This document shows, piece after piece, positions 50,967 through 64,000 of a DNA stretch of 64,000 bases. The stretch lies in the NCBI GenBank assembly GCA_046329875.1, contig JAXLTT010000018.1, positions 933 to 64,932 on the forward strand, given 5' to 3'. Each line of letters starts with the position of its first letter. The stretch's first letter is position 1. A program made the translations under genes and the position numbers. The notes under the pieces are model-generated. The model was given only the letters and a program-made list of their open reading frames with translations, searched no databases and was not told the DNA's origin. This stretch comes from Bacteroidales bacterium. Its GTDB lineage: Bacteria > Bacteroidota > Bacteroidia > Bacteroidales > VadinHA17.

Positions 50967-51347
50967 TCATTTTGCCCTGATATAAAGGCTTGTATATCCA
51001 TCGTTTGGTACGATGGTCAGGGAGTCGCCACTTTGGTATATTCCAACATAGGCATATTTTACACCTGGAAATAAAGAATCAAAATCTAACTCCAGGAAAT
51101 TCTCATTTTGTGCGATAATCCTGATCTTCCCTTTTTTGTCGCTGTTATATTGAAATAACCCATATTTTATAAACTTAATTGTATGATAATTGCTAGTGTC
51201 AAATCCAGTATGAGTTACCGTGTAAACATAATTCCAGGTTCCATAAATGTTTTGATACTGCTCTGTAAAGATCTCGTCCTTGTAGCCTTTTTCACAACCA
51301 CTTATGAAAATTGCCAGTAAAAAACCAATTATTATTCTTGCTTTCAT
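50967..51347 (-). CDS. cassette lipoprotein ORFan, 126 aa
   Basis: MKARIIIGFLLAIFISGC lipobox. Confidence 0.6.
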   Translation of the reverse strand: MKARIIIGFLLAIFISGCEKGYKDEIFTEQYQNIYGTWNYVYTVTHTGFDTSNYHTIKFIKYGLFQYNSDKKGKIRIIAQNENFLELDFDSLFPGVKYAYVGIYQSGDSLTIVPNDGYTSLYIRAK

Positions 51348-51442
51348 ATGATTGAACTGACAGTTATACAAGTTACAGAGATTTTGGCTATTTCTAAAAA
51401 AAATCAATTGACCAGATTGCTATTGTTTCGTGAGGAATACTA

Positions 51443-51636
51443 CGACTAACGACGCGGCGAGTGTGCGCCAGGGCACAAGGCGAAAGTTTAAAGAGGGCCG
51501 AGCGTAAAGAAATTGCCTTAATGGCAATTTTAGCGAGGAGCCAGCTTGCAGGGATGTAGTATGTGATCCGTCCACTGGCGGAACCAGTTCGCACGCTGGC
51601 GGAAACAACTTACCCATATTGTCCGTGTTAGCCATA
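51443..51636 (-). repeat. attC-like site c (about 194 bp)
   Basis: Left CGACTAACGACGCGGC, right TATTGTCCGTGTTAGCCATA. Confidence 0.7.
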
Positions 51637-51657
51637 GGTTGGATTCGATATCCTTTT

Positions 51658-52554
51658 TTAATAAAGAGATCCCTTTTCTTGTTTCTTAATCTCCCTGGAA
51701 GTCATCTCTTTTTGCATAATGCTTTTCAAATATACTACCTTTGTTTTTCTAATCTCGCTTGCAGGCAAAAGGCTTCCATCCTGGCCTGAGTATTTAATTT
51801 GTAGGCTTTCCGCTCTCCCATTTTCTTTAGGTGCAACAACGTATAGTGTCAATGTTTCAGCAGCACTAATTATACCAATTGGTTCACCGGGATAAACTAC
51901 CTGTCCAAGTTTAAGAAATGTGACTTCAGGATTTAATCCCAGATAGATCGCAATAGTTCCGTCATTTTGCAAAATTTCAAGACTTGAAGACTTAATAAAT
52001 CTTTCAACTTCTGTTTTATTGTCTTGTAGTGCAATCACTGTCCCTTTCCGTATAGCGTATACGGTATCATTTATGGACATTTTGAATTTGTTGAGATTAT
52101 AAACGGTAGCCTCTCCTAGTTTTTCTTCCTTAAAACTTACAATTTTCCCTTCACCTATTGGGATGAAATAAGGAAATTCTAAATCGGCCTTATCCGCGGG
52201 CAATAGTTTAAAACTGATACCGTAACTGTAATTAATTGATTTAGATTTGTCTTGTACATCAAAGACACAAATACGATTTCTACCATGATAGACCTTTGTA
52301 TGATACTCAAAGATGTTGGGAGAGAGATTAAGAAGAGCACTAAAATGAATTGTGAAATCATACGTTAGGTAAGATTTATTTATAGCATCAAAAGTGACTC
52401 TAGAACTTGATTTCTCTACATCCATAGAGATGGGGGAATTAATTCTACCTCCCAGGGTCATTTCTTCAACTTTTGAATATTGCCCAATAAGCAATTGGTG
52501 AGAAATTATTAGAATTAGTAAAGTAGAAGCCGTTGGTAAATGTATTTTTTTCAT
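51658..52554 (-). CDS. cassette secreted protein with degenerate LytM/M23-like C-terminal domain
   Basis: Signal peptide MKKIHLPTASTLLILI. The GTVIAL...LEILQNDGTIAIYLGL...LKLGQVVYPGEPIGII pattern resembles M23 but lacks the His ligands. Confidence 0.5.
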   Translation of the reverse strand: MKKIHLPTASTLLILIISHQLLIGQYSKVEEMTLGGRINSPISMDVEKSSSRVTFDAINKSYLTYDFTIHFSALLNLSPNIFEYHTKVYHGRNRICVFDVQDKSKSINYSYGISFKLLPADKADLEFPYFIPIGEGKIVSFKEEKLGEATVYNLNKFKMSINDTVYAIRKGTVIALQDNKTEVERFIKSSSLEILQNDGTIAIYLGLNPEVTFLKLGQVVYPGEPIGIISAAETLTLYVVAPKENGRAESLQIKYSGQDGSLLPASEIRKTKVVYLKSIMQKEMTSREIKKQEKGSLY

Positions 52555-52578
52555 GTTTGTCATTATTTCGATTAAACT

Positions 52579-52755
52579 TATGGCTAGCGGCCTGGCGGGG
52601 TGCGTTTCACGCACAAGGAAAAAGTTAAAAGAGGGCCGCGCGTAAAGAAATTGCCTTAATGGCAATTTTAGCGAGGAGCCAGCTTGCAGGGGTTGTAGTA
52701 TGTGATCCGCCCACTGGCGGAGCCTACTAAACATACCGACCGTGTTACAGGCATT
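52579..52755 (-). repeat. attC-like site d (about 177 bp)
   Basis: Left TATGGCTAGCGGCCTGGC, right ACATACCGACCGTGTTACAGGC. Confidence 0.7.
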
Positions 52756-52769
52756 TATGTTAAACTTAA

Positions 52770-53384
52770 TTATGAAAGAGATTTTAATATTAAAGAGATG
52801 GTCAAAATTAAAAACATAATAGCTGCAACAAACCTATTAATCCTAATAGCCTCCTGAATTCGTAATTTACTTTGAGCTGAGAGTTCATCAATTAGTCTTA
52901 GCTTTTGATCGTTCAATCCTCTTCTTTCAAACTTAGTTAGAAGCTCTGTTTTTTTGTCTTCAAGGTTTTTGAATTTTTGAAATAGTTTTTTGTAGATATA
53001 GTTATCGAGTAACATTATAAAGACTACAATTGCAATACTCGCAATCCAAAAAATTGGCGGAAGGTCATTGAAATTGATGTTTTGAAGTTTCAATAACACA
53101 ACTATAAAGGTTATTAAGAGGGAAATAACTATTAAAGAAGTTTTCAAATTGAAATAGGGCCTTTTAGAGAGTTCAATACAGAGATTATCTAATTCCTCTT
53201 CAATATTTTCTAGTTTAAATGAATCCTTTAATGATTCAACATCAGTTAAGTTAAAGTGACGGTTCTCTAGTTCTAATCTGGCAAATGGAATAACTTCATC
53301 AGGGAGAAAAGAATTTCCAGAATAGATATCGTAAAGTTCCTTTGAGGTTTTTTCTTTTAATATTTCTGTCCAATTGTATTGCAT
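52770..53384 (-). CDS. cassette membrane ORFan, 204 aa (3 TM helices)
   Basis: Hydrophobic helices at about aa 83-105, 118-138 and 182-202. Confidence 0.6.
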   Translation of the reverse strand: MQYNWTEILKEKTSKELYDIYSGNSFLPDEVIPFARLELENRHFNLTDVESLKDSFKLENIEEELDNLCIELSKRPYFNLKTSLIVISLLITFIVVLLKLQNINFNDLPPIFWIASIAIVVFIMLLDNYIYKKLFQKFKNLEDKKTELLTKFERRGLNDQKLRLIDELSAQSKLRIQEAIRINRFVAAIMFLILTISLILKSLS

Positions 53385-53405
53385 TCGATTAGAAATTTCT
53401 GATTA

Positions 53406-53537
53406 ATTGCCTATAACGGCCCGGCTGGGTGTGTGTAGGGCAAAAGGCGAAAGTTTAAAGGCGAAAGTAAAGAAAACTTTATCCCCCAGTCCGCCTGCTG
53501 GCGGAGATTATTAATTATACCGTCCGTGTTAGGTAAT
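53406..53537 (-). repeat. attC-like site e (about 132 bp)
   Basis: Left ATTGCCTATAACGGCCCGGC, right ATACCGTCCGTGTTAGGTAAT. Confidence 0.75.
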
Positions 53538-53545
53538 GTGATTTG

Positions 53546-53917
53546 TTAATTTATCCTCATGGACTTATTTTTAAAGTCCTCTCTTGTACAATCTATAATT
53601 GCTCCGCTAAAAGTCTTTCTGTAGATATGGAATGAGTTTTTAATTTTAAATACTGAATCTCCAATCTCTATTCCGTTTTTCAGATCACTATAATAAACGC
53701 TTAAGTCTAGCCTTTCTCCATTACTAAATGTTATAATAGTACTTCCATGATTATCTGAATGTATTCTTTTCTCTATTACTTTACCTGAAAAGGATGACTT
53801 GTAGAATTCTAAGTTCGCTTTATGGTTGATATAAAAAGCATACCCAAAGAAACATACTACACTATTAATTATTAATGCAATACAACCATATTTGCGGTAT
53901 TTATAAGGTAATCCCAT
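53546..53917 (-). CDS. cassette ORFan with N-terminal TM anchor, 123 aa
   Basis: One TM helix (GCIALIINSVVCFFGYAFYI). Confidence 0.55.
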   Translation of the reverse strand: MGLPYKYRKYGCIALIINSVVCFFGYAFYINHKANLEFYKSSFSGKVIEKRIHSDNHGSTIITFSNGERLDLSVYYSDLKNGIEIGDSVFKIKNSFHIYRKTFSGAIIDCTREDFKNKSMRIN

Positions 53918-53954
53918 TTGTAATTTATCTCAGAACCTAAAGATTCTTTCGCAT

Positions 53955-54094
53955 ATTACCTAACGGTTGACGACACAGGGACGTGCGTGGATTTAGGGGC
54001 GAAAACCTATCAGATTACAATGTGTTTGTTTACGAGCTGCAACCGCCCAAAACCCGCCCTGTAACCCGCATGCCCGGGGTTGTTTGTTGCAGGG
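53955..54094 (-). repeat. attC-like site f (about 140 bp)
   Basis: Left ATTACCTAACGGTTG, right CCCGGGGTTGTTTGTTGCAGGG. Confidence 0.7.
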
Positions 54095-54200
54095 GGTAAT
54101 TTATTCTGCATCAATATTGAACTCAATATCAACAATTTCATAGATTACTTAATAGTCCGGTTAGCAACTCAAATGATATAATTTCCTGTTTTCATATAAT

Positions 54201-54234
54201 AAGAAGAGACGACTATAAGAGGTCGTCACTTCTT
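54201..54234 (-). terminator. hairpin downstream of cassette ORF 54254-55003
   Basis: AAGAAGAGACGAC-tataagag-GTCGTCACTTCTT; only a modest T-run follows on the sense strand. Confidence 0.4.
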
Positions 54235-54253
54235 ATAATTGAATAAACTCTTA

Positions 54254-55003
54254 TTATTTTTTATTATAATCTTCTACCATCCTGGTGAAAGCCTCTAAAG
54301 TATCCATGTGGAAGCTGGATTCAAAGACAGGTCCTTTTACAAAAAGATTTCTAAAACCATATTTGTTTTTAGCGTAATCGGTTAAAACGGTTTTATTATC
54401 GCCGAAAAGATTCTTTAAATTTATGGTAGACAAATTTTTCGCCTCCTCTCCTGCTTTTTGGGCAAGAATCTCAAAGTTATTTTCCTGCCATTTGACATAA
54501 TCAGCATCACTAACCTTCGTCCGGTCAGGTAAGTAGGAAGTAACGATACCCTGGGTATGGTGGTATTTTTTTAAAACGGTTATCTTTCCTTCCGTGGCAA
54601 CTTCCAGCATCATCTTTCTAGGTATCTGGTCTTGTTTTCTTTTCGCAAAAAGATTGACATATGTCTCCTGTTTGAATTTTTTACCATTTTCAAGTGTAAA
54701 ACTTTGCAGGTCGTCGGCATCATAAACCACAACCGAGCCTTTGTCTATTTCTTTCCCTGCTTTGTAGGCTTCATACGCTTTCTCGTCAATCAGGTAAACC
54801 TTTTTTTGAAAATCCTGGGGGTTCATCATATCAAAATATATGTATCCATTAACAGTATCCCCGTTTTTCATCGTTACCGTACCTTTTTCATATGTCCAAA
54901 CCGAACTGGGAGTTCTTAACTGAGCTTTAGCATGGTTACATGTCAGGCTAAAAAGCATTACCAGCATGAGTGTAATCGTTGAAATTCTGTTTGTTGCTTT
55001 CAT
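54254..55003 (-). CDS. cassette secreted ORFan, 249 aa
   Basis: Signal peptide ..LTCNHAKAQ. Confidence 0.6.
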   Translation of the reverse strand: MKATNRISTITLMLVMLFSLTCNHAKAQLRTPSSVWTYEKGTVTMKNGDTVNGYIYFDMMNPQDFQKKVYLIDEKAYEAYKAGKEIDKGSVVVYDADDLQSFTLENGKKFKQETYVNLFAKRKQDQIPRKMMLEVATEGKITVLKKYHHTQGIVTSYLPDRTKVSDADYVKWQENNFEILAQKAGEEAKNLSTINLKNLFGDNKTVLTDYAKNKYGFRNLFVKGPVFESSFHMDTLEAFTRMVEDYNKK

Positions 55004-55226
55004 AATTTTGATTTTATTAAAATTAGGGTTACTCTCTTAAAAAAATCTTTGCACCGAAGATTTGTAATTGTAGTTTGCAATAAATTTGGGTTGCTTTGCA
55101 TCTTTCAAGGTTTATTAGTAATATACAAAAAAGCATCTGATTTTCGTAATCAATCCTTATCTTTTTTATCCTTGAATGATTCTTTGTGAAAAAACAATTA
55201 TTGTACTTTCACTCTGTGGTTTTATG

Positions 55227-55418
55227 CCCTGCAACGGCCAGGCGGGGGTGCGCGGAGCGCACAAGGCGAAAGTTTAAAGGAGAAAGGCGAAAGTCAAAAG
55301 TAAAAAGTAAGAAAAGCAATTGGGCTGATAAATCACTTGCAGTTTCTGTCAAGGTGGCCTTTAGGTCCCCGGCAAAAAGTGTGACAAACAAATGAACTTT
55401 ATTGTCCATGTTAGCATT
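55227..55418 (-). repeat. attC-like site g (about 192 bp)
   Basis: Left CCCTGCAACGGCCAGGC, right TTATTGTCCATGTTAGCATT. Confidence 0.7.
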
Positions 55419-55426
55419 CGTTTATT

Positions 55427-56338
55427 TTAATGTAATGGTTCGATGGAATCTATAATTACTTTCCCAATGTTACCATTCACAAAATAATTTATTTGAATTT
55501 TTATTTTGTTTTGTTCTAATCTTGGATCATAATTTATCCAATCTAGTGGCATTTTGTAAATAATATCCTGCATTGTCTTGGCGAACGGAATACTACCATT
55601 GTAACTTATTCTCTGAATGTTTATTGAATCGTGGAAAGTTGTTAACTCAAATATTGCATTTGAATTCTGAACAAAAAATGGTTGGCTTTTAACTCTCTTT
55701 TCAAAAACTGATTTATAAAAGAGGGACTTAAACCTTTCTAAGCTTCCAAGTTGATCATAACTTTTTAAACCATTGTTATATATCATATTGTTATTTGTGA
55801 AATCATATTTACAGGCTATGGAGCCATTTTTAAAATAGTAATTCCATATACCTACTTTTTTGTTGTCAATATATTCTCCAACTGCTGCAGTCCGAATTCC
55901 ATTTGTGTCAAGAGAAATCTTAATTGGGTCATTTCCTTTCGGCAGGGTTGCTGTTGTATGTTTTTTACCTCCGAAAAGATTTACAATATTATCATTTTCT
56001 GAATCTGGAATGTAAAAATATACCCATTTACCAGTCTTCTTGTCATTTTTAAACTCTCCTATTGAAAGCAAAGGATTTGCGACATTCTCTGGATCACAGA
56101 ATATCCATCCTCCAGTTTTCTTATTATTATCATAGTTTCCGTAAGCTTCAATGGATTTATCGTACATATTCATAGATTCAAAATACTTCAGGTACTGCCC
56201 CTGTCTAACATTCTTATCACTCTTTAGTACATAATAAACCTCTCCAAATTGGTCATTCGACCTGATGATTTTTTTCAGTTCTTGAGCTTTCAAACTAGTC
56301 GAAATAATTAAGAAACAAAGTAGGATTTTGATTTTCAT
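55427..56338 (-). CDS. cassette MORN-repeat-variant (YwqK-like) secreted protein
   Basis: Signal peptide; repeated KKTGGW / KKTGKWVYFY / KKVGIWNYYFKNG units. Confidence 0.7.
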   Translation of the reverse strand: MKIKILLCFLIISTSLKAQELKKIIRSNDQFGEVYYVLKSDKNVRQGQYLKYFESMNMYDKSIEAYGNYDNNKKTGGWIFCDPENVANPLLSIGEFKNDKKTGKWVYFYIPDSENDNIVNLFGGKKHTTATLPKGNDPIKISLDTNGIRTAAVGEYIDNKKVGIWNYYFKNGSIACKYDFTNNNMIYNNGLKSYDQLGSLERFKSLFYKSVFEKRVKSQPFFVQNSNAIFELTTFHDSINIQRISYNGSIPFAKTMQDIIYKMPLDWINYDPRLEQNKIKIQINYFVNGNIGKVIIDSIEPLH

Positions 56339-56374
56339 ATTTTAAAAAGATTATGGCTTATACTAATATCTATT

Positions 56375-56794
56375 AATGCTAAAGGTCCGGCGAGGGCTGA
56401 GCGTTAATAAACAGCCCTGGCGGGCTGTTTTAGCGAAGAGCCGGTCTGCAGGGGCGGAGTAAGCGTAACCCGACGAAGCATCCGTGCACAATCCTGATAC
56501 CCCACGGTAGCGGGGCCACAAAACTGTCCCGGTGCGAGGAGGGTTTGGCATGTGTTTTTGCAGTCATGTTGTGAAGTGTCTTGCCTCTACGTGTATCGCG
56601 GTACAATGAGTCTTGGAGTTAGAAATTTGTCCTGGTGTAGATACTTAATTGAAATTACTTGAGGGGCGCCCTATGTCGGAGCGAAGCGGAGATTGGGGCG
56701 CGGGGCTCTGTCACGGTGTAGTATTAGTCATAGCAGCAGGAGCAAAAGCAAAAACCATGACAAGCTTATTAAACATACCGACCGTGTTAGCGGG
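56375..56794 (-). repeat. attC-like site h (about 420 bp, carries the module shared with site j)
   Basis: Left AATGCTAAAGGTCCGGCGAGGGCTGAGCG, right AACATACCGACCGTGTTAGCGGG. Confidence 0.65.
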
Positions 56795-56816
56795 TGACCC
56801 TGTTTAAGTTATAAGT

Positions 56817-57839
56817 TTAATGTTCGTTTTCAGTATTTGAGTCAGGATACTCATCATCAAATATGAATTTTACATTCTTAAATCTAACTATCAATTCTTT
56901 CTGCTCAGTAAGTTTTAACTTGTTATTGCCCATGATTATCTTGAGATTTCTAATTGAATCTAATGAATCTGGTAGTCTAATACCCACATTAGCTGTTAAA
57001 TTCAATTCTTGAAGATTTCTCAACTTAGAGAATGATTCAGGAATGTCCTTAATGTAATTTACTTCCAGATTTAGGATTTTAAGATTTTCTAGCGCTGAAA
57101 TCTCATCTGGGAGACTATGCAAGTTATTGGTGTTTAATTCGAGTTCCTCTAGTTTTGAAAGGTTGGAGATATAAGGTGGAATTTCGTTAATACGATTATA
57201 GGAGAGTTTCAGTTTCTTTAGTGAGGTCAAGGAAAAGATTTCTTTTTGTATCTCAGTCAGAGCATTTCTACCCAAGTCTAGGTATTCGAGATTTAGCAGA
57301 TTAGTAATTTCTGAGGGTAATTGCTTTGCTAAAGTTGTATCGGATTTACCTCTAGTATCCAATCCGCCAAACAATACCAGCATCGTCAGATTCTTTAATT
57401 TACCAATTGAGGAGGGAAGAAATATGTTCATTGTGCAACTGTTGCTATTATCGACAATCAGTTTCTCTAAATATCTGAGGGAGCCAATTTCAGGTGGAAG
57501 ATCTATTAGGTTTTCAAGACAGTGAATCTCAAGGATTGTCAAGTTCCTGAGTGTGCTAATTTCTGAGGGCAAATGTTTCAGGTTATAATACTTTGAAGTT
57601 TCAGTGCTAGGATTCCACTTTGGTGTAATAATAAGATGATAGATTCTGTCTGACAATAATAATGCTGAGTCTAGATCAGTGATTGTTAAAGTATCATCCC
57701 CAATCTCTCTGTTAATTGAGGGCTCAATTGCAGGAATAGAATCTATATTTATTACTCCTGACTTTGTTGATGGGGCCCTTGGTGTTTGACTACATCCGAT
57801 TATTACAACTAATGCAAAGGAATAAACGGCTGATTTCAT
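56817..57839 (-). CDS. cassette leucine-rich-repeat lipoprotein
   Basis: Lipobox VIIGCSQ; at least 9 LxxLxLxxNxL repeats (LKKLKLSYNRINEIP, LEELELNTNNLHSLP...). Confidence 0.85.
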   Translation of the reverse strand: MKSAVYSFALVVIIGCSQTPRAPSTKSGVINIDSIPAIEPSINREIGDDTLTITDLDSALLLSDRIYHLIITPKWNPSTETSKYYNLKHLPSEISTLRNLTILEIHCLENLIDLPPEIGSLRYLEKLIVDNSNSCTMNIFLPSSIGKLKNLTMLVLFGGLDTRGKSDTTLAKQLPSEITNLLNLEYLDLGRNALTEIQKEIFSLTSLKKLKLSYNRINEIPPYISNLSKLEELELNTNNLHSLPDEISALENLKILNLEVNYIKDIPESFSKLRNLQELNLTANVGIRLPDSLDSIRNLKIIMGNNKLKLTEQKELIVRFKNVKFIFDDEYPDSNTENEH

Positions 57840-57859
57840 AGTAGTTAGTTATGATTAAC

Positions 57860-58201
57860 CGCTAACGGCCCGGCGAGGGCTGAGCGTAAATAAATTGCCT
57901 GAATGGCAATTTTAGCGAGGAGCCAGCTTGCAGGGGTGGCAATATAAGGTAAAAGTTAAAAGTAAAAAGTCAAAAGTAAAAAGGCAAAAGTAAAAAGTAA
58001 GAAAAGCATTCGGGCTGCTAAACCACTTGGGGTATTTGCTCGGCTGGCGTTTACGTCACCGGGGAAAAACCATGACAACTGCGTAAGCCGAAGCTTTCTT
58101 GACCACCAAAGCTTTCTTGTCCACCGAAGCTTTAGCGGAGGTGGAAGCGTAGTCGGGGGCGAAGGCTTAGCTTATTAAACATACCGACCGTGTTATAGGC
58201 T
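57860..58201 (-). repeat. attC-like site i (about 342 bp)
   Basis: Left CCGCTAACGGCCCGGCGAGGGCTGAGCG, right AACATACCGACCGTGTTATAGGC. Contains an AAAAGT-rich tract. Confidence 0.7.
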
Positions 58202-58223
58202 GCTCTTTTATTTCATACCATTT

Positions 58224-59072
58224 TTACCAAAGTTTCCGTTTGCTCTTTATTGTCAATTCTTTAATCGTTTTCTTGGTCGTTGAACGTGGTTTTGTTTCTT
58301 CTGATTTTAACTGCTGGTCAACAATTTGTATTATCCAAATATCAAAGTCAGCAACGAAGCCATACATTGTATTTTTTATATCGAAATCAATTTGAACGTC
58401 AATTGTGTCAATCTTTTCAATTAAATGCGCTGTCAGTTTATGTCTGATTGGAAGATACCATTGAACCACTGGTTTATTGTCCCAACTTGCATAATTCAAA
58501 ACAAGAATTTCTGCATTTTCAAAGTCCGTTTTGTTCGGTTTGTTTGATTGGTTTATTCGAGTTGTTGCGATTAAATTATGTCCATATTCGTCATTTTTAA
58601 TTGCTTCTAAAACAACAGCTCCGCCGTAATTTCCGTTTTCAAGTTTAAAAGCCAAACAATCACCTTTTTCAAAAACTGGTTGTCTAATTAGTTTCTTTTT
58701 CCTTGATTTTACTTTAGGTATTTCTTTTTGTAAGTCAGCAAGAAAATTGTCAAGAGCTGTTTTACGTTTTTGGATGGTCTTTTCGTCAGCGTCAAGTTGT
58801 CTCCAGACTTCAAGGTCTGCGCCTGTTTCAATAACTTTTTTAACTCGGTCTAAAATATCTTTGTCCAATTGTTTACATTCCCATTGTGCTTTTGCCAAAG
58901 CAAACCAAAAGTTATTACAGTCTTCCGTATCATTAATTGTTTCTTGATTGTCTGCGATTAACTTTTTTGAAATTTCTCCAACATCAAGTCCACCATTATA
59001 CAAGTCAAAAAATATCCTGTAAGTATCAGAGTAAGTGTCGTTAGATGATATTGCTGTTCCCCAAGTTCCCAT
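58224..59072 (-). CDS. cassette DUF4259 domain protein
   Basis: MGTWGTAISSNDTYSDTY... start is characteristic of DUF4259. Confidence 0.65.
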   Translation of the reverse strand: MGTWGTAISSNDTYSDTYRIFFDLYNGGLDVGEISKKLIADNQETINDTEDCNNFWFALAKAQWECKQLDKDILDRVKKVIETGADLEVWRQLDADEKTIQKRKTALDNFLADLQKEIPKVKSRKKKLIRQPVFEKGDCLAFKLENGNYGGAVVLEAIKNDEYGHNLIATTRINQSNKPNKTDFENAEILVLNYASWDNKPVVQWYLPIRHKLTAHLIEKIDTIDVQIDFDIKNTMYGFVADFDIWIIQIVDQQLKSEETKPRSTTKKTIKELTIKSKRKLW

Positions 59073-59103
59073 ATATTTTGTATTGTCCTGTTTTTTTAGA
59101 GTT

Positions 59104-59660
59104 GCCCATAACGGCCCGGCGAGGGCTGAGCGTTAATAAACAGCCCTGGCGGGCTGTTTTAGCGAAGAGCCGGTCTGCAGGGGCGTAGTAAGCGTAACCC
59201 GACGCAAGCACCGGGCAGATCCTGGTTCTTCAGGCAGAAATTGTCCCTGTGCAAGCTTGCCTGCCGTCAGGCAGGGAGGGTTTGGCGTGCGTTTTTGCAG
59301 TCATGTTGTGAAGTGTCTTGCCTCTACGTGTATCGCGGTACAATGTTTTTTCGGAGCAGTGAACTTATCCCCATTTACAAAACTTGTTTCAGGCACTGGC
59401 GCAGTGTCGCGATGGAATGAATATTGGAGCCAGCAATTAGTCAAGGAGTAGGATCTTTATAGTGTGTAGCTGCGGGAGTCCGGGTGCAGTATTAATAAGG
59501 GAACATTAAAGCCAACCGTTATTTTGGAAAAGAAAAAAGGCTAAAAGAAAAAAGAAGGTTCGGGCTGCTAAACCGCGTGTGGTTTTTGTACGGCTGGCGT
59601 TTACGTCACCGGGCAAAAACCGTGACAAACAACTTACCTATATTGTCCGTGTTAGCAACA
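59104..59660 (-). repeat. attC-like site j (about 557 bp)
   Basis: Left GCCCATAACGGCCCGGCGAGGGCTGAGCG, right CTATATTGTCCGTGTTAGCAACA. Confidence 0.65.
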
Positions 59661-59680
59661 GGGCATTTTATTAGATTCTA

Positions 59681-60805
59681 TTATTGAAACAAATGAATGT
59701 AATTATCAAAAATGTAAATTCGCCCTCTCTGTCCACCCGTAATCTCCTTAAGAATTCCAAGTTTTTCAAGATCAACAATTAATTTATAGGCTGACGGTAA
59801 TGATATTTTTGCAATTTCACCAACCTTTTCAGCATTAACTGATGGTCTTTGATAAAGATAGTTTGTAACCTTTTGAGCATTAGCAGCCCTACTGCCAAGA
59901 TGCTGAATTTTAAGGTCAATTTGTTTTTGTAATTGCAGAATACTATCAAAAGTGGAAATTCCTTTTTTAGAAGTCTCTATGATTCCAACTAGGAAGAATT
60001 TGAACCATTGACTGATGTCATTTTTAATACGTACATTCATTAAATTCTCGTAATAGAGACGTCTGTGTGTTTCCAAGAAATCTGATAAATATAATATGGG
60101 TTTTTTAAGGATCCCTTTATTAACTAAGTATAAAGTGATCATTAGTCTTCCTACTCTCCCGTTACCGTCTAAAAATGGGTGAATAGTTTCAAAATGATAA
60201 TGAATTAGAGCTATTTTAAGAAGCTCTGGAAAGAAAATTTCCTCATTATGAACAAATTTTTCTAGATCCCCCATTAGTTCAGGTACAGACGTATGAACTG
60301 GTGGAATAAATGTTGCATCATTTATTGTTGCTCCCCCAATCCAGTTCTGACTTCTCCGAAATTCTCCAGGCTGTCTCTTTTCTCCTCTTACTCCTTGCAA
60401 TAGAATCTTGTGTGTATCCCTAATTAATCTTGATGAAAAAGGAAGTTCCTCTAAAGCTTTAATTGCAGATTCCATCGCTTGAATATAGTTCTGAACTTCT
60501 TCCCAATCATCCCTTTTGTCTAATGGAACATCTTCTTTCTCAAGAAGAGCCTCCTCAATATTGGTTTGTGTTCCTTCAATTTTACTACTTTGAGTTGCTT
60601 CTTTTAAAACATGCATACTTATAAACAAATCAATATTTGGGATATAGTTGGAATACATATCCAATCTACCAAGTTCTCGGTCTGCTTTGCTTAATAGTTG
60701 TAAAACCTCCATGTTGTCAATAGTCCATTGCCTATTAATGAGAGATGGTTGAAAGCTCTTATATGAGCCTTGATTTATATAAGATCCAGCATTGAAACTT
60801 TGCAT
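59681..60805 (-). CDS. cassette Fic family protein (AMPylase-type)
   Basis: HPFLDGNGRVGR Fic motif, Fic N-terminal region, C-terminal wHTH-like tail. ATG at 60805 was preferred because TTG at 60826 lies inside the -7 box. Confidence 0.88.
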   Translation of the reverse strand: MQSFNAGSYINQGSYKSFQPSLINRQWTIDNMEVLQLLSKADRELGRLDMYSNYIPNIDLFISMHVLKEATQSSKIEGTQTNIEEALLEKEDVPLDKRDDWEEVQNYIQAMESAIKALEELPFSSRLIRDTHKILLQGVRGEKRQPGEFRRSQNWIGGATINDATFIPPVHTSVPELMGDLEKFVHNEEIFFPELLKIALIHYHFETIHPFLDGNGRVGRLMITLYLVNKGILKKPILYLSDFLETHRRLYYENLMNVRIKNDISQWFKFFLVGIIETSKKGISTFDSILQLQKQIDLKIQHLGSRAANAQKVTNYLYQRPSVNAEKVGEIAKISLPSAYKLIVDLEKLGILKEITGGQRGRIYIFDNYIHLFQ

Positions 60806-60823
60806 GAGCCTGTATATTTTAAA

Positions 60824-60831
60824 CAAATATA
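60824..60831 (-). promoter_or_regulatory. candidate -7 box TATATTTG internal to the Fic cassette
   Basis: TAnnTTTG on the sense strand, about 19 nt upstream of ATG 60805. Confidence 0.4.
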
Positions 60832-60944
60832 TTCCTTATTTAAGAAAAAGCAAAATATATTAAATAAACAACGCGACTATTTAAGCTATTTAAATATTTC
60901 ATAAATAATTATTTGTCTATTTAAGGTAGAATCTAGAATCTCCT

Positions 60945-61280
60945 TGTTGCTAACGGCCCGGCAATATGGGGAGGTTGTGTTGGTTTGAGAATGGAAGCTG
61001 TGACCAGAAAGCTTTCTTTGAGGCAGGGTCCTGGCACACAGCTGGAATGAACAAACCATGGCGCACTTTTTGCGAGTCCGGGTACAAATTGGCTGAGTAA
61101 ACGCGTGCCGAGTTTCAAGGTTGAAAATTGACCACATGCTGTCGGTCATGCAGGTAATAGATCAAAGAAATAAGGAGCGTTCGGGCTGATAAATCACTTG
61201 CAGTTTTTGTTAAGGTGGCCTTTAGGTCCCCGGCAAAAAGTGTGACAAACAACTTACCCATATTGTCCGTGTTAGCAGAA
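60945..61280 (-). repeat. attC-like site k (about 336 bp)
   Basis: Left TGTTGCTAACGGCCCGGCAATATGGG, right CCCATATTGTCCGTGTTAGCAGAA. The right core abuts the stop codon at 61282. Confidence 0.75.
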
Positions 61281-61281
61281 G

Positions 61282-62148
61282 TTATTTTTTCAATTCATAT
61301 AATCCCTTTTTATCATTCCATACTAAATTATTTTGGTTTTCATTCCAGAAATTCAACCACCAATCAGCATTTTTAGTTCCATTAAATTTCAGATCCCCGA
61401 ATAATATTTGCAAGTATGCATAGGTATATGTGTCTGGATTACAGAAATTTGCTGGGGAATCCTTGTCTTTTGGCATTTCTTCTAGGTTATATACTTTCTT
61501 TAAACAGTTTTTTGTAATTCGTTCTTTAATAGGATTGTCTTGCAGAGAAATAATTAAAGCATGGATTGCACTTAAACTAGTGATTTCTGGAATTTTAGAA
61601 TTTTTAAATTCGATTGGTTGAAATTCTTCGACTGATTTGTTTGACAAATAGTCCACCCATTTGTTCTTTAGTACTTCAAGCTCCAATTCATTTGATTGAA
61701 TGGTGACATAACCAAAATTTTTGTTTGTTAAGTTCTGAAGAATTTGATTTGCTCTACCTCCAACTTTGAATAAATCGTTGTCAATTACCAAACCTTTTCC
61801 CTCAAATATTATATCACCACTTACTATTCTATCCCATATAATTAATCTACTAGTCCCCTCTAGCTTTGTCTCTTTTAGGTTAATTATCTGATTTGTAAGT
61901 TCTTTTAAATAGGTACTATCTTTTGAATAGTTATTTATTGAAGCATTCATGGTTAAAAAAACTGCACTCCAACTTTTGTCATTCAAGTTTTTGGATAAAA
62001 GTTCTGAGGGTGTAAGTTTTTGGGCTGCGTCATACATTTCTTTCGTGTAATTCTCTATATTTTGTTGACTCCAAGAAGTCAATAAACGTTGAGAATATGA
62101 ACAAAAGCAAATAGATGTAGTTAAAATAAAAAAGATTAATTTTTTCAT
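61282..62148 (-). CDS. cassette secreted ORFan, 288 aa
   Basis: MKKLIFFILTTSICFCSYSQ signal peptide. The 62277 extension runs through attC l. Confidence 0.6.
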   Translation of the reverse strand: MKKLIFFILTTSICFCSYSQRLLTSWSQQNIENYTKEMYDAAQKLTPSELLSKNLNDKSWSAVFLTMNASINNYSKDSTYLKELTNQIINLKETKLEGTSRLIIWDRIVSGDIIFEGKGLVIDNDLFKVGGRANQILQNLTNKNFGYVTIQSNELELEVLKNKWVDYLSNKSVEEFQPIEFKNSKIPEITSLSAIHALIISLQDNPIKERITKNCLKKVYNLEEMPKDKDSPANFCNPDTYTYAYLQILFGDLKFNGTKNADWWLNFWNENQNNLVWNDKKGLYELKK

Positions 62149-62163
62149 AGACTTAAATTTAAT

Positions 62164-62488
62164 TTCTGCTAACGGCCCGACAATAAAGTAAGTAAGTGTT
62201 GGCTGACGAAGGCATCCGGCAACGCGTCCAGGTGCTTTAGCCGGGAATCTATCCCGGTGACAAGGAAGCCACGGCACGCTTTTTGCAAATCCAGGCGCAA
62301 CTAAATTGAACAGGTTGAGTGTCGCGATACAAACTTTATAAGTGATTAGTTATTTCTCACGATACAGAAAACTGATAAGTGGGCGATGGCGCGGTCCGGG
62401 TTTATCACCAGTTACGAATCCTGATAGACGACTGAGAGTCACGCAAAAAGCGTGACGAGCTTATTTACTTTATTGTCCGTGTTGTGGG
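62164..62488 (-). repeat. attC-like site l (about 325 bp)
   Basis: Left TTCTGCTAACGGCCCGACAATAAAGTAAGTAAG, right CTTATTTACTTTATTGTCCGTGTTGTGGG. Confidence 0.75.
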
Positions 62489-62498
62489 TAGTGCTTTT

Positions 62499-63572
62499 TT
62501 ATAATTCCATATTCATTGCTTTTCTTACTTCTGTTAAAGTTTCAATAGCAACTTCTCTGGCTTGTTTAATACCGTTTCTTAAAATCTCTTTAACAAATGT
62601 TTTATCTTCTTCAAGTTGTTTCCTTCTTATCCTAATTTCCTTGAAATGGGAATTCAAGGCTTCAGAAGTGATTTGTTTTAATTTTCCAGCACCTTGATTT
62701 CCAATTTCTTTCGCAATATTTTCAGGAGATTGATTCAGGCAAAGGCTACAAAGTCTTAATAAATTAGCAACTTCTGGTCTATTAATTGGGTCATATTCGA
62801 TTAATCGTTCAGAATCTGTTTTTGCGGATTTAATTAATTTATTAGTCTCATCTTCGGTAGCCTTTATCATAATGCTATTATTTCGACTTTTGCTCATTTT
62901 CTGAGTGCCATCCAATCCTAAAATCACAGGGACTTCACTAAGTAATCCAATAGGTTCTCTAAAAACATTTGATTTGAATTTTTTATTAAATCGTTTTGCA
63001 ATTGTCCTTGTCATTTCTATATGAGGTAATTGGTCTTTACCAACAGGAACCACATTACTTTTACAAAACAATATATCAGCGGCTTGATGAACAGGATAAG
63101 TGTACATTCCTGCATTAATAATGTTTTGACATGACGCTGCTATTTCTTCTTTTATGGTTGGGTTTCTGCTAAGTTCTGCATTAGAAACCAAAGATAAAAA
63201 CGGAATCGTTAATTGATTCAGTTCAGGAATGTGACTATGAGGAAAAATAAATGTTTTGTTTTTTGAAGGGTCTAACCCACATGCTAAATAATCAATCGTA
63301 AGTTCAACCACATACTTTGAAATATCTGCAAAAACATCTCTATCAGTTAATACTTGATAATCCGCAATCAAGATATACGTTTCAACGCCAAGTTCTTGCA
63401 ACCGAACTCGATTCTGTAAAGAACCAAAATAATGTCCAATATGTAAATTCCCTGTTGGTCTATCTCCTGTAAGTACTCTGTGTTTATGTGGGTTTATTTT
63501 TAAATCTTTTTCTAACTCATCGCTTCTTTTAATTGAAATTTCATACGATGAATAATTAACGTCATCCTTCAT
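62499..63572 (-). CDS. trpS: cassette-borne tryptophan--tRNA ligase
   Basis: HIGH motif (TGNLHIGHY) and KMSKS motif; GDRPTG-type N-terminus; 357 aa. Confidence 0.88.
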   Translation of the reverse strand: MKDDVNYSSYEISIKRSDELEKDLKINPHKHRVLTGDRPTGNLHIGHYFGSLQNRVRLQELGVETYILIADYQVLTDRDVFADISKYVVELTIDYLACGLDPSKNKTFIFPHSHIPELNQLTIPFLSLVSNAELSRNPTIKEEIAASCQNIINAGMYTYPVHQAADILFCKSNVVPVGKDQLPHIEMTRTIAKRFNKKFKSNVFREPIGLLSEVPVILGLDGTQKMSKSRNNSIMIKATEDETNKLIKSAKTDSERLIEYDPINRPEVANLLRLCSLCLNQSPENIAKEIGNQGAGKLKQITSEALNSHFKEIRIRRKQLEEDKTFVKEILRNGIKQAREVAIETLTEVRKAMNMEL

Positions 63573-63593
63573 TATATCTGTTTTAATTTTTCA

Positions 63594-63601
63594 CAAAAGT
63601 A
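63594..63601 (-). promoter_or_regulatory. candidate -7 box TACTTTTG inside the trpS cassette
   Basis: TAnnTTTG on the sense strand, 22 nt upstream of ATG 63572. Confidence 0.4.
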
Positions 63602-63700
63602 AAATTTTAATTTGCACGAGCAGCAGATTCTTGCATTCTGTATAACGGCAAAATCGTTATCTTGATAATTTAACGGAAATCTCTCAGTAACAGAGGATTA

Positions 63701-64000
63701 CCCACAACGGCTCGGCAATAAAGTAAGTAAGTGTTGGCTGACGCAGGCATCCGGCAACGCGTCCAGGTACCCGCCGGTAGGCGGGCCGGGAAACTATTCT
63801 GTATAACGGCAAAATCGTTATCTTGATAATTTAACGGAAATCTCTCAGTAACAGAGGATTACCCACAACGGCCCCGCGGTATGTGCAGTTGACGGCAGCA
63901 TCGGGGTGGCGTGTTTTTTGCCAGGGCGTATAGAAAGTAGAAATGTTTATCGTTTTGAAAATCTTAATTGTTTTGCAAAAAACATGACACCATTTGGGCT
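63701..64000 (-). repeat. attC-like site(s) m (left half duplicated; right end beyond window)
   Basis: CCCACAACGGC occurs at 63701 and 63862. The segment 63635-63711 is repeated at 63796-63872. Confidence 0.6.

What the first reader, a model, noticed from the sequence alone, without database searches (positions are those of the whole stretch)
62173..63707. A tryptophanyl-tRNA synthetase carried as an integron cassette
ORF 62499-63572 has class I HIGH and KMSKS motifs and a GDRPTGNLHIGHY TrpRS-type N-terminus. It sits in a unit bounded by matching cassette ends (CCCACAAC / GTTGTGGG). It has its own TAnnTTTG box (63594-63601) and a 129-nt leader containing the hairpin ATAACGgcaaaatCGTTAT.

Established knowledge: auxiliary TrpRS paralogs can confer resistance to TrpRS-targeting antibiotics, for example indolmycin-resistant TrpRS copies in Streptomyces.

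Inference: the cassette copy may be a mobile resistance or self-protection determinant rather than the housekeeping enzyme.
Basis: partly seen in the sequence, partly recalled or inferred. Interest (0 to 1): 0.65.

Follow-up and report, generated by a model that had tools for sequence, protein, structure and literature searches.

The report
Tryptophanyl-tRNA synthetase gene on integron cassette
A complete gene with its own promoter for an essential protein-synthesis enzyme (tryptophanyl-tRNA synthetase) sits on a genuine, widely travelling integron gene cassette in wastewater Bacteroidales, but it looks like an ordinary Bacteroidales-type enzyme that was captured, not a specialised antibiotic-resistance paralog.

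Summary
ORF 62499-63572 (-) is a full-length TrpRS: TIGR00233 at 255.6 bits, with HIGH and KMSKS motifs. The unit 62173-63707 is exactly one integron-type cassette, with a G|TT crossover at both ends. Its first 7 nt (TTGTGGG) complement its own inverse core (CCCACAA), and it carries a 316-nt attC. It lies in an array of at least 12 cassettes (about 50.5 kb to beyond 64 kb) in an uncultured Bacteroidales chromosome.

The same unit (98-100% nt) occurs in 45 other contigs. These show at least 12 different upstream junctions, cassette-precise presence or absence of neighbours, and one insertion inside a BKACE gene.

The enzyme is not a divergent paralog. It nests within chromosomal, syntenic, GC-adapted trpS genes of Bacteroidales/Marinilabiliales (92%, 88% and 77-80% aa). 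It also carries 73 nt of native upstream region.

The whole subfamily has Gln at the indolmycin contact His43 and at the chuangxinmycin contact Met129. Insensitivity is therefore plausible, but it is not cassette-specific and not tested.

No integrase was found, because the array runs off the window.

One extra result stands out. The same gene+R'' unit is joined to at least four unrelated attC bodies, and in some loci a group II intron sits exactly at that joint.

The parts
62173..63707 (-). trpS gene cassette (1,535 bp), from the first TT of TTGTGGG to the final G before the next cassette's TTAGC
   Evidence: G|TT junctions at both ends. The same unit is found at 99.4-99.9% nt with different neighbours in L010-L019, L200 and L201.
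62499..63572 (-). trpS ORF, 357 aa, class I tryptophanyl-tRNA synthetase
   Evidence: TIGR00233 at 255.6 bits against a cutoff of 176.75. PF00579. Best solved relatives are D. radiodurans TrpRS II 1YI8 (E 6e-64) and T. maritima 2G36 (E 2e-58). dN/dS between cassette forms A, B and C (L003) is 0.04-0.15; it is 0.26-0.66 for comparisons with the intron-bearing copies L021/L100.
63432..63443 (-). HIGH motif (aa 44-47), within GDRPTGNLHIGHY
62886..62900 (-). KMSKS motif (aa 225-229)
62173..62488 (-). attC of the trpS cassette (316 nt). Order: R'' CCCACAAC, spacer ACGGAC, L'' AATAAAGTAAATAAG, long variable centre, L' CTTACTTACTTTATT, spacer GTCGGGCC, final G
   Evidence: Sequence. The bottom strand folds with L boxes paired, z = -3.4. 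With its own 5' end joined, as in the excised circle, the R box also pairs; dG is -63.8 kcal/mol and z = -5.5.
62481..62488 (-). Inverse core R'' (CCCACAAC; reads GTTGTGGG on the + strand)
   Evidence: Shared by all forms of the unit.
63701..63707 (-). First 7 nt of the cassette (TTGTGGG), i.e. the cassette's share of the core site R'
   Evidence: Preceded by a different attC end plus G in at least 12 different contexts.
63573..63634 (-). Native trpS upstream region with the -7 box TACTTTTG (63594-63601). Together with 63697-63707 it forms the 73-nt region shared with chromosomal orthologs
   Evidence: 60 of 73 positions identical to the upstream region of L022, although dS of the genes is about 1.5. 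The box lies 22 nt before the ATG.
63635..63696 (-). 62-nt insert, polymorphic, flanked by AAT/AAT. It contains the hairpin ATAACGgcaaaatCGTTAT (63642-63660)
   Evidence: Absent from L003-L008, L020, L021, L200 and all form B, D and E copies. Fold is not exceptional.
63708..63868 (-). 161-nt mini-cassette with no ORF. It consists of the first 73 nt of a trpS cassette plus the last ~88 nt of its attC, and lacks R''/L''. It is an internal-deletion derivative
   Evidence: the repeat finder families D10 and D12; sequence. Present in some arrays and absent in L011, L014 and L016.
63869..64000 (-). 3' part of the attC of a further upstream cassette (a 196-aa ORF in L010). The array continues beyond the window
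   Evidence: The alignment with L010 (2400-4233) runs up to window position 64000, and L010 continues upstream with a GCTAAC R'' and three further ORFs.
60954..62172 (-). Next cassette downstream (287-aa ORF of unknown function plus a ~326-nt attC). Absent from L010-L015, where the Fic cassette follows trpS directly
   Evidence: No family hit.
50510..60953 (-). Rest of the cassette array. It includes a Fic/DOC cassette (59112-60953), a 282-aa ORF (57866-59111), an LRR protein (56384-57865), a 303-aa ORF (55236-56383) and more. attCs are 119-548 nt long

Best explanation
Window 62173-63707 is a mobile integron-type gene cassette whose cargo is a complete, functional, self-promoted trpS.

Shown:
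- The unit has the anatomy of a cassette. There is a G|TT crossover at each end. Its own first 7 nt complement its inverse core. The attC bottom strand folds into R and L boxes with an unpaired spacer.
- It sits in a chromosomal array of at least 12 like units in an uncultured wastewater Bacteroidales.
- It has moved as a discrete module into many arrays and into at least one secondary GTT site.

Shown by comparison:
- The gene and 73 nt of its upstream region were captured from a low-GC Bacteroidales-type chromosome, where this TrpRS type is vertically inherited.
- The cassette copies evolve under purifying selection.

Inferred:
- An integron integrase excises and inserts the unit through the folded bottom strand of the attC.
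- The gene is transcribed from its own Bacteroidota-type promoter (TACTTTTG, 22 nt before the ATG), whatever its distance from the array promoter.
- The product charges tRNA-Trp and so gives the recipient a second, transferable TrpRS.

The most likely selective value is to keep Trp-tRNA charging going when the resident enzyme is inhibited, for example by indolmycin- or chuangxinmycin-like TrpRS inhibitors. This subfamily has Gln in place of the contact residues His43 and Met129. That last step is untested, and I give it only about 0.3. The structural and mobility part I hold at about 0.85-0.9.
For: TrpRS identity and intact motifs.

Cassette anatomy: junctions and R''/own-start complementarity in 7 of 8 cassettes; attC sequences; folds at z = -3.4 and z = -5.5.

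Mobility:
- The unit is 99.4-99.9% identical in L010-L019, L200 and L201, with three or more different upstream cassettes and two different downstream cassettes.
- Homology breaks fall exactly at the junctions. For example, window 62167 jumps to 60966 in L010.
- 45 loci show at least 12 distinct 5' junctions, all at x|TTGT(G/A)GGTAAT.
- In L020 the cassette splits a BKACE gene at CATTG|TTATG. The rejoined ORF matches PF05853 continuously across the joint.
- The cassette is present in wastewater and activated-sludge runs from 10 studies.

Foreignness: trpS GC is 32% and GC3 21%, against 44% for the host core. The host is Bacteroidales by AtpD.

Origin:
- An NJ tree nests the cassette clade in Bacteroidales/Marinilabiliales.
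- The locus is syntenic in ~15 Carboxylicivirga/Saccharicrinis species.
- Gene GC tracks flank GC in those species.
- The 73-nt upstream region is 82% identical to L022 despite dS of about 1.5.

Function retained: dN/dS is 0.04-0.15 among forms A, B and C (L003). RNA-derived contigs cover the gene.

Inhibitor contacts: Bs H43 corresponds to Q73 and M129 to Q163, with D132, I133, V141, V143 and Q147 conserved. H43N confers indolmycin resistance (PMC4899734). M129A abolishes chuangxinmycin binding (PMC8814664).
Against: - No integron integrase, attI or Pc was found. The array runs off the window at 64000. tblastn with IntI1 found nothing at E<=1e-3 in the window and the first 179 loci, and nothing better than E=0.56 in all 201 loci plus the array part of the window. 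By what is visible, this is a cluster of attC sites that may or may not have an integrase next to it.
- The attC is 316 nt, well outside the usual 57-141 nt, and no recombination assay exists for such sites.
- The -7 box alone is not statistically significant. No transcription start was mapped. The RNA contigs run across the cassette borders and could be read-through or DNA carry-over.
- Nothing shows that the host has another trpS, and nothing shows that the enzyme resists any inhibitor.
- If the host's own enzyme belongs to the same subfamily, as is likely for a Bacteroidales, the His43/Met129 substitutions give it no advantage there.
Confidence: 0.8

Rival explanations
1. The cassette copy is a dedicated resistance or self-protection TrpRS, a divergent auxiliary paralog like the indolmycin-resistant TrpRS of Streptomyces, and not a housekeeping-type enzyme.
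For: - It is mobile, foreign in composition and has its own promoter.
- The best solved relative is the auxiliary TrpRS II of D. radiodurans.
- Gln replaces the indolmycin contact His43 and the chuangxinmycin contact Met129.
- Relatives at 49-58% identity are annotated on Streptomyces, Rhodococcus and Microbacterium plasmid records.
- A sister clade of this subfamily is scattered over many phyla at 62-70% identity, which suggests horizontal spread.
Against: - It is 92%, 88% and 77-80% identical to chromosomal trpS genes of Bacteroidales/Marinilabiliales that are syntenic across ~15 species and GC-adapted.
- All ten inhibitor- and substrate-contact positions examined are the same in the cassette copy and in those orthologs.
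- The subfamily also contains the only TrpRS of T. maritima (PMC2954223).
- No biosynthetic cluster or inducible leader is linked. Rfam finds no T-box or attenuator, and the 5' region does not fold unusually.
- Known producer-type resistant aaRS are described as only ~30% identical to the housekeeping copy (PMC9437257).
Confidence: 0.25
2. A recently captured housekeeping gene with no special function. Cassette formation happened to pick up a trpS with its promoter, and the cassette persists and spreads as a near-neutral or mildly useful spare copy (dosage or back-up) that hitch-hikes in arrays.
For: - The enzyme and its upstream region are of the native type.
- One lineage (L003-L008, L107) keeps it fixed at a single chromosomal site with its attC destroyed, as if it were domesticated.
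- Most integron cassettes have no demonstrated benefit (general knowledge).
Against: - Purifying selection acts between forms (dN/dS 0.04-0.15).
- The unit is present in runs of 10 studies (2018-2025) and in at least 12 contexts, with at least 4 attC bodies. This argues for sustained selection during repeated transfers.
- An extra, constitutively expressed aaRS is not obviously neutral.
Confidence: 0.3
3. Not a cassette at all. This is the host's ordinary trpS, which happens to lie between intergenic palindromic repeats (REP- or MITE-like elements).
For: - No integrase is seen.
- The palindromes are far longer than normal attCs.
- The enzyme is of the type expected for a Bacteroidales host.
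Against: - Exact module boundaries at G|TT, and own-start/R'' complementarity specific to each cassette.
- An identical unit in unrelated neighbourhoods, including a contig binned as Melioribacteraceae (Ignavibacteriota) where it interrupts a gene.
- GC3 of 21% in a 44% GC genome.
- A group II intron in the position and orientation typical of attC-targeting introns in related copies.
Confidence: 0.03

Closest known systems
Gene cassettes of sedentary chromosomal integrons, or clusters of attC sites lacking an integrase (CALINs)
   Same: - One ORF plus an attC.
- G|TT crossover, with the inverse core complementary to the cassette's own start.
- Co-oriented array of mostly unknown ORFs, here including Fic and LRR cassettes.
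- Cassette-wise presence or absence between strains, and secondary-site insertion.
- Integrons are already reported in Bacteroidota (PMC9668308).
   Different: - The cargo is an essential-type aminoacyl-tRNA synthetase with its native promoter. A full-text search for integron + gene cassette + tRNA synthetase returned 19 papers; none of the 15 listed, judged by title and abstract, concerns a synthetase cassette.
- attCs are 119-548 nt instead of 57-141 nt.
- No integrase is visible in the window.
Mobile or auxiliary antibiotic-insensitive aminoacyl-tRNA synthetases: plasmid IleRS2/mupA, and Streptomyces TrpRS1 (S. coelicolor) / SGR_3809 (S. griseus)
   Same: - An extra synthetase gene on or from a mobile element that could bypass inhibition of the resident enzyme.
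- Substitution at the indolmycin contact His43.
   Different: - Those enzymes are divergent from the host's housekeeping copy (about 30% identity, PMC9437257) and have measured resistance.
- This one is a near-orthologue of the chromosomal enzyme of the host's own order.
- No resistance has been measured.
- The vehicle is an integron cassette, not a plasmid or a producer's chromosome.
D. radiodurans TrpRS II (1YI8/2A4M) and T. maritima TrpRS (2G36)
   Same: - Same TrpRS subfamily: E 6e-64 and 2e-58.
- GDRPTG-x-LH-x-GH N-terminus.
- Gln at the Bs His43 and Met129 positions.
   Different: - Roughly 45% identity over the aligned region in the alignment with 1YI8.
- No NOS partner was noticed among the window ORFs that were scanned against family libraries.
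- It has two Cys (C-x2-C, in LCSLC) in the C-terminal region rather than the four-Cys C-x22-C-x6-C-x2-C motif of TmTrpRS. This was read from the sequence without aligning it to TmTrpRS.
- Membership of this subfamily does not imply auxiliary status.
Group IIC-attC introns (e.g. S.ma.I2), for the related loci L021 and L100
   Same: - Antisense to the cassette gene and inserted between the gene and the body of its attC (PMC3001079).
- D5-D6 match with a CGC triad and a maturase-domain ORF.
   Different: - Only the 3' ~600 nt is on the contigs.
- The Rfam score (37.8) is just under the gathering score (40).
- The class was not established by RT phylogeny.

Membership tests
Integron gene cassette | ORF followed by an attC: an imperfect inverted repeat with R''-L'' ... 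L'-R' boxes and an unpaired spacer, foldable as a single (bottom) strand | tested here: met
   R'' CCCACAAC / ACGGAC / L'' ... L' / GTCGGGCC / G. DNA folds give z = -3.4 in array form and z = -5.5 in circular form with the R box paired.
Integron gene cassette | Crossover at G|TT, so that the cassette's first bases (TTRRRY-like) complement its own inverse core rather than the neighbour's | tested here: met
   TTGTGGG against CCCACAA is 7/7. The neighbours start with TTAGC. The same rule holds in 7 of 8 cassettes of the array, each with a different 7-mer.
Integron gene cassette | Behaves as a discrete mobile module: the same unit in different arrays and positions, with homology ending at the junctions | tested here: met
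   (45 loci, at least 12 upstream junctions). Secondary-site insertion inside a BKACE gene.
Integron gene cassette | attC of typical size (about 57-141 nt) with defined extrahelical bases | tested here: not met
   316 nt here and 119-548 nt across the array. Extrahelical bases were not resolved from the MFE fold. Size is a typical property rather than a strictly defining one. Other forms of the same cassette carry attCs of ~130 nt.
Integron (complete platform) | Integron integrase gene (intI) with attI and promoter Pc next to the first cassette | tested here: inconclusive
   The array runs past window position 64000. There is no IntI1-like ORF at E<=1e-3 in the window and the first 179 loci, and nothing better than E=0.56 in all 201 loci. 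Chasing upstream cassettes gave only short contigs.
Integron gene cassette | Excision and integration catalysed by an integron integrase | not testable with these tools
   Needs a recombination assay.
Tryptophanyl-tRNA synthetase (class Ic) | Rossmann-fold class I core with HIGH and KMSKS; matches the trpS equivalog model above its cutoff | tested here: met
Tryptophanyl-tRNA synthetase (class Ic) | Trp-recognition residues of the specificity helix (Bs D132, I133, V141, V143, Q147) | tested here: met
   D166, I167, V175, V177 and Q181. The BsTrpRS reference sequence was verified as 100% identical to 1I6K.
Tryptophanyl-tRNA synthetase (class Ic) | Charges tRNA-Trp | not testable with these tools
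   Only indirect support: purifying selection.
Auxiliary inhibitor-resistant TrpRS (Streptomyces TrpRS1 / SGR_3809 type) | Second trpS in the same genome beside a sensitive housekeeping copy | not testable with these tools
Auxiliary inhibitor-resistant TrpRS (Streptomyces TrpRS1 / SGR_3809 type) | Evolutionarily distinct from the host lineage's housekeeping enzyme (low identity) | tested here: not met
   Nested in the Bacteroidales/Marinilabiliales chromosomal clade at 77-92% aa. The host is a Bacteroidales. The host's own copy was not seen, so this is by inference.
Auxiliary inhibitor-resistant TrpRS (Streptomyces TrpRS1 / SGR_3809 type) | Changed inhibitor-contact residues | tested here: met
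   H43 is Q and M129 is Q. This is invariant across the whole subfamily, chromosomal orthologs included.
Auxiliary inhibitor-resistant TrpRS (Streptomyces TrpRS1 / SGR_3809 type) | Raises the MIC, or has a high Ki, for indolmycin or chuangxinmycin | not testable with these tools
   Needs expression and enzymology.
Group IIC-attC intron (related loci L021, L100 only) | Group II ribozyme domains V-VI and an intron-encoded RT/maturase; inserted antisense at an attC | tested here: inconclusive
   RF00029 at 37.8 bits (gathering score 40), E 5e-4, full model, directly abutting CCCATAA. GIIM domain at 56 bits in the antisense ORF of L100. The rest of the intron and the attC beyond it are off the contigs.

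The most novel reading that the evidence does not exclude
The trpS cassette is a natural series that shows how cassettes acquire and exchange their attC.

Observations:
- One and the same gene unit runs from the native upstream region starting at TTGTGGG to the inverse core CCCACAA.
- That unit is joined to at least four unrelated attC bodies: A 316 nt, B ~135 nt, D ~128 nt, E. The switch point lies within a few bases of CCCACAA.
- In other copies a group II intron (antisense, IIC-attC-like) sits at exactly that joint (L021, L100), or has left a 5-nt relic (L003 type).
- The cassette's own core-site half (TTGTGGG) is homologous to native upstream sequence of a chromosomal ortholog (TTGTGAG in L022).

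This fits the Leon-Roy proposal (references 20 and 37 of PMC3001079) that attC-targeting introns recruit genes and join them to attC sites. Here the mechanism would be homologous recombination between intron copies in different attCs, followed by intron loss.

It would also be a rare example of a housekeeping gene caught soon after cassette formation.
Probability: 0.25. Interest if true: 0.8.

Novelty: new member of a known kind. Interest (0 to 1): 0.6.

Why it matters
Integron cassettes are known as carriers of accessory genes, and how they are built from chromosomal genes is an old open question.

Here an essential-type translation enzyme, still carrying its native promoter region, travels as a cassette through wastewater communities and across at least order-level, and possibly phylum-level, boundaries.

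This matters in three ways.
- It adds aminoacyl-tRNA synthetases to the cargo of integrons. That is relevant to the durability of synthetase-targeting antibiotics such as indolmycin and chuangxinmycin analogues, if this subfamily is indeed insensitive.
- It offers a donor-like ortholog and several cassette forms with different attCs, plus an attC-targeting intron at the joint. That makes models of cassette genesis and attC exchange directly testable.
- It shows arrays with attCs of 300-550 nt, which size-limited detection tools would miss.

Tried and rejected
- **RNA families in the window.** Rfam at gathering thresholds found nothing: no T-box, no attenuator, no intron in the window itself.
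- **The 'leader hairpin'.** The 135-nt 5' region folds no better than shuffles (z = -0.44). The hairpin lies in a 62-nt insert that other copies lack, so I dropped it as a regulatory element.
- **TAnnTTTG as statistical evidence.** The motif is not enriched (55 found, 57 expected). I kept it only for its position and conservation.
- **Integrase hunt.**
  - tblastn with IntI1 (sequence written from memory, not verified) found nothing against the window and all loci.
  - A homolog search with the most upstream cassette ORF of L010 gave only contigs shorter than 8 kb.
  - Look-ups of five near-identical proteins gave arrays or short contigs without an integrase.
- **L003-type locus as the pre-cassette source gene.** I rejected this for four reasons.
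  - It keeps the cassette's exact 5' start and R''.
  - It is followed by the 5-nt relic TCGAG of the intron end seen in L021/L100.
  - L007 has two bona fide cassettes inserted just upstream.
  - The unit occurs with the same ends in unrelated flanks.
- **L022 as the direct donor.** Rejected because dS is about 1.5. L022 is a relative of the donor lineage only.
- **Similarity upstream of the cassette boundary** between L022 and L003, L021 or L020: none beyond shuffles.
- **Link to the proven indolmycin-resistant Streptomyces enzymes.** This could not be made. Vecchione & Sello 2009 is not held, and I have no SCO3334 or SGR_3809 sequence.
- **Metatranscriptome contigs.** They show the gene in RNA libraries but give no transcription start, and they run over the cassette borders.
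- **Metagenome-collection scan.** It added only two near-identical loci.
Full report
**1. What is at the coordinates**

The ORF at 62499-63572 (minus strand, 357 aa) is a tryptophanyl-tRNA synthetase.
- It passes the NCBIfam trpS equivalog model (TIGR00233, 255.6 bits against a cutoff of 176.75) and Pfam tRNA-synt_1b.
- It has HIGH at aa 44-47 inside GDRPTGNLHIGHY, and KMSKS at aa 225-229.
- The best solved relatives are D. radiodurans TrpRS II (1YI8, E 6e-64) and T. maritima TrpRS (2G36, E 2e-58). Canonical E. coli and Bacillus enzymes follow at 1e-40 to 1e-49.

**2. It is a cassette in a cassette array**

From about 50.5 kb to the window's end, all ORFs are on the minus strand. They are separated by long imperfect palindromes.

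Read in the direction of the genes, each palindrome has this order:
- xxxxAAC (R'')
- a short unpaired spacer (mostly ACGGAC or ACGGTC)
- an L'' arm
- a variable centre
- an L' arm
- a spacer (GxCGGGCC)
- G|TTxxxx (R')

Its first seven bases, TTGTGGG, are the perfect complement of its own inverse core CCCACAA (62482-62488). The following cassette starts with TTAGCAG.

The same rule holds for 7 of 8 cassettes in the array, 6 of them at 7/7 and one at 6/7, each with its own 7-mer: TTAGCAG, TTAGCAA, TTATGGG (6/7), TTAGCGG, TTAGCAT, TTAGGTA. This is the classical footprint of excision as a circle and re-insertion at G|TT.

The + strand of the window is the cassettes' bottom strand. It folds with the L boxes paired (z = -3.4). 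When the cassette's own 5' end is joined to the attC, as in the excised circle, the R box pairs as well (dG -63.8 kcal/mol, z = -5.5, no shuffle as good).

**3. It moves as a module**

A protein differing from the window's by one residue (P0002, 99.7% identical) is encoded on contigs L010-L019. There the DNA is 99.4-99.9% identical to the window from the 5' junction to the 3' junction and not beyond.
- Upstream neighbours: the mini-cassette plus a 196-aa-ORF cassette (as in the window), a beta-lactamase-family cassette (L011, L014), or another attC (L016).
- Downstream neighbours: the window's 287-aa cassette (L001), or the Fic cassette directly (L010-L015). In the latter case homology jumps from window 62167 to 60966.

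Three more look-ups brought the total to 45 loci with trpS at 98% nt identity or more. These show at least 12 different 5' junctions, all at x|TTGT(G/A)GGTAAT.

In L020 (a contig binned as Melioribacteraceae) the cassette, with a different 135-nt attC, interrupts a gene at CATTG|TTATG. Removing the 1,283-bp cassette restores an ORF that matches the BKACE family (PF05853) without a break across the joint. That is a secondary-site insertion.

Word-index searches find the cassette in wastewater, activated-sludge and related runs from 10 studies, 2018-2025.

**4. Host and composition**

The window's core genes include F1-ATPase alpha and beta, a WD40 protein and others. AtpD is at best 94% identical to any database protein. 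Named hits at 86-89% are Bacteroidales MAGs.
- Core GC is 44%.
- The array is 36% GC.
- trpS is 32% GC, with GC3 at 21%.

**5. What kind of TrpRS**

A scan of one genome per species found this enzyme type at the following identities:
- 92% in a Bacteroidales MAG (L022)
- 88% in Saccharicrinis sp. 156
- 80% in the complete genome of Bacteroidales bacterium F22
- 77-78% in every Carboxylicivirga species listed

In about 15 Carboxylicivirga/Saccharicrinis species it lies in one conserved locus: PadR-PspC block, VTT-domain gene, trpS, ArsR-ArsC-ACR3. There the gene's GC follows the flanks, from 37% to 49%. This indicates long vertical residence, so it is most probably the housekeeping enzyme in those species.

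In an NJ tree the cassette copies form a tight cluster. Successive sister groups are L022, Saccharicrinis, F22 and Carboxylicivirga. A second clade of the subfamily mixes Bacillota, Fibrobacterota, Spirochaetota, Myxococcota (including Sorangium), Planctomycetota and some Bacteroidota at 62-70% identity. That pattern suggests frequent transfer.

The cassette's 73-nt upstream region, once the 62-nt insert is removed, is 82% identical (60/73) to that of L022, right up to the cassette's first base (TTGTGGG against TTGTGAG). Synonymous sites of the genes are saturated (dS about 1.5). Beyond the boundary there is no similarity above shuffles.

So the cassette took along a constrained native promoter region. 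L022 is a relative of the donor, not the donor itself.

Among cassette forms A, B and C (L003), dN/dS is 0.04-0.15. It is 0.26-0.66, on very few changes, for comparisons involving the intron-bearing copies L021/L100.

**6. The resistance idea**

I aligned the protein with B. stearothermophilus TrpRS. That sequence was written from memory and verified as 100% identical to 1I6K.

| BsTrpRS residue | Cassette enzyme |
|---|---|
| His43 | Gln73 |
| Met129 | Gln163 |
| Asp132 | conserved (D166) |
| Ile133 | conserved (I167) |
| Val141 | conserved (V175) |
| Val143 | conserved (V177) |
| Gln147 | conserved (Q181) |

His43, Asp132 and Gln147 are the indolmycin determinants, and H43N gives resistance (PMC4899734; bioRxiv 10.64898/2026.03.23.713518). 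M129A abolishes chuangxinmycin binding (PMC8814664).

All 41 subfamily members examined, chromosomal ones included, have the same residues at these positions. Reduced sensitivity is therefore a reasonable prediction for the whole subfamily. It is not a specialisation of the cassette copy, and it would give a Bacteroidales host with the same enzyme type nothing new.

It could matter in recipients with a His43/Met129-type enzyme. I could not place the proven resistant Streptomyces enzymes relative to this subfamily. Relatives at 49-58% identity occur on Streptomyces, Rhodococcus and Microbacterium plasmid records.

**7. Details of the 5' region**
- The -7 box TACTTTTG (63594-63601) lies 22 nt before the ATG, a spacing like that of other genes in the window. 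The motif count as a whole is at chance level.
The insert is missing in L200 (same attC) and in all other forms.
- The region's fold is unremarkable.
- Directly upstream, 63708-63868 is a 161-nt cassette without an ORF. It consists of the first 73 nt and the last ~88 nt of a trpS cassette, and is best read as an internal-deletion derivative of a duplicated copy.

**8. Several attCs for one gene, and an intron at the joint**

All copies share the stretch from TTGT(G/A)GG to CCCACAA. What follows differs.

| Form | What follows CCCACAA | Loci |
|---|---|---|
| A | 316-nt attC of the window | 15 |
| B | unrelated ~135-nt attC | 12 |
| D | ~128-nt attC; also the form found in four RNA-Seq libraries (three metatranscriptomes, one labelled metagenomic RNA-Seq) | 7 |
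| E | a further, different attC | 2 |

In L021 and L100, CCCATAA is followed at once, on the opposite strand, by the 3' end of a group II intron.
- Rfam Intron_gpII scores 37.8 bits (gathering score 40), E 5e-4, over the full model, with a CGC triad.
- An antisense ORF carries the maturase domain GIIM (56 bits).

This is the position and orientation described for group IIC-attC introns (PMC3001079).

In the L003-L008/L107 genomes only TCGAG of that intron end remains, and the attC is gone. There the gene sits fixed between an HU-like gene and an AraC-family gene.

This fits the proposal that such introns help to join genes and attC sites. The switch point cannot be told apart from recombination in the conserved AAC-AC bases, so I rank this as the novel reading (probability about 0.25) and not as the finding.

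**9. What is missing**

No integrase, attI or Pc was found. The array continues past position 64000, and 63869-64000 is the attC of a further cassette as in L010. No IntI-like ORF was found in the fetched DNA.

The attCs are unusually long: 119-548 nt, and 316 nt here.

A second trpS in the host, enzyme activity, inhibitor sensitivity, the transcription start and integrase-dependent recombination all remain to be tested.

**10. Verdict**

The 'resistance paralog' reading is only a possibility.

The cargo is a captured, ordinary Bacteroidales-type TrpRS gene with its native promoter. I found no earlier description of an aminoacyl-tRNA synthetase as integron cassette cargo. I therefore file it as a new member of a known kind, of above-average interest because of what it may reveal about how cassettes are made.

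Noticed in passing
window 50510-64000 (e.g. 59112-59659, 56384-56794, 62173-62488): The attC sites of this array are very long, 119-548 nt against the usual 57-141 nt. They share internal sequence modules with each other (repeat families D2, D3, D6, D8, D11). Size-limited attC finders would miss them.
   Followed up: partly
window 63708-63868: A 161-nt cassette without an ORF, made of the first 73 nt and the last ~88 nt of a trpS cassette, with no R''/L''. It is present in some arrays (L010, L012, L013, L015, L017-L019) and absent in others (L011, L014, L016).
   Followed up: partly
window 63635-63696: A 62-nt insert bounded by AAT/AAT in the cassette's 5' region, containing two small hairpins. 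It is polymorphic among otherwise identical cassettes (absent in L200). It could be a tiny mobile element or a deletion polymorphism.
   Followed up: partly
L021 7919-8198 and L100 7835-8434: A group II intron (D5-D6 match, CGC triad, maturase ORF) inserted antisense directly after the inverse core of the trpS cassette. A degenerate ~150-nt piece of the same end follows another cassette in L007 (about 2150-2290).
   Followed up: partly
L020 1636-2930: The trpS cassette, with a different 135-nt attC, is inserted inside a BKACE (PF05853) gene at CATTG|TTATG, in a contig binned as Melioribacteraceae (Ignavibacteriota).
   Followed up: yes
L003 9618-9922 and 14898-15273; L007 1-250 and 2290-2560: A ~300-nt intergenic region with four 21-nt tandem repeats (aaaatgatggtaaagatattt) lies upstream of trpS and occurs again 5 kb away. 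In L007 it is duplicated on either side of two inserted cassettes. Its nature is unexplained.
   Followed up: no
L181 4642-4780: The form-D attC is followed by G|TTGTG again, and the cassette is preceded by a D-like attC end. This is either tandem trpS cassettes or an assembled circular cassette.
   Followed up: no
window 24537-24898: A 78-nt tandem repeat, 4.7 copies, 93% matches. Each unit holds two G+C-rich palindromes and a TAATTTTG box.
   Followed up: no
window 50466-50503: A (CTCACT)6 microsatellite at the distal end of the cassette array, next to a glyoxalase-family gene (49962-50441).
   Followed up: no
window 59681-60826 and 56817-57839: Cassettes encoding a Fic/DOC-family protein (Fic_N + Fic) and a leucine-rich-repeat protein. 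Related arrays carry a SIR2_2 cassette in place of the LRR one (L010-L013). These could be defence- or effector-type cargo.
   Followed up: no
window 29486-32728: A 1,080-aa protein made largely of WD40 repeats, in the host core region.
   Followed up: no
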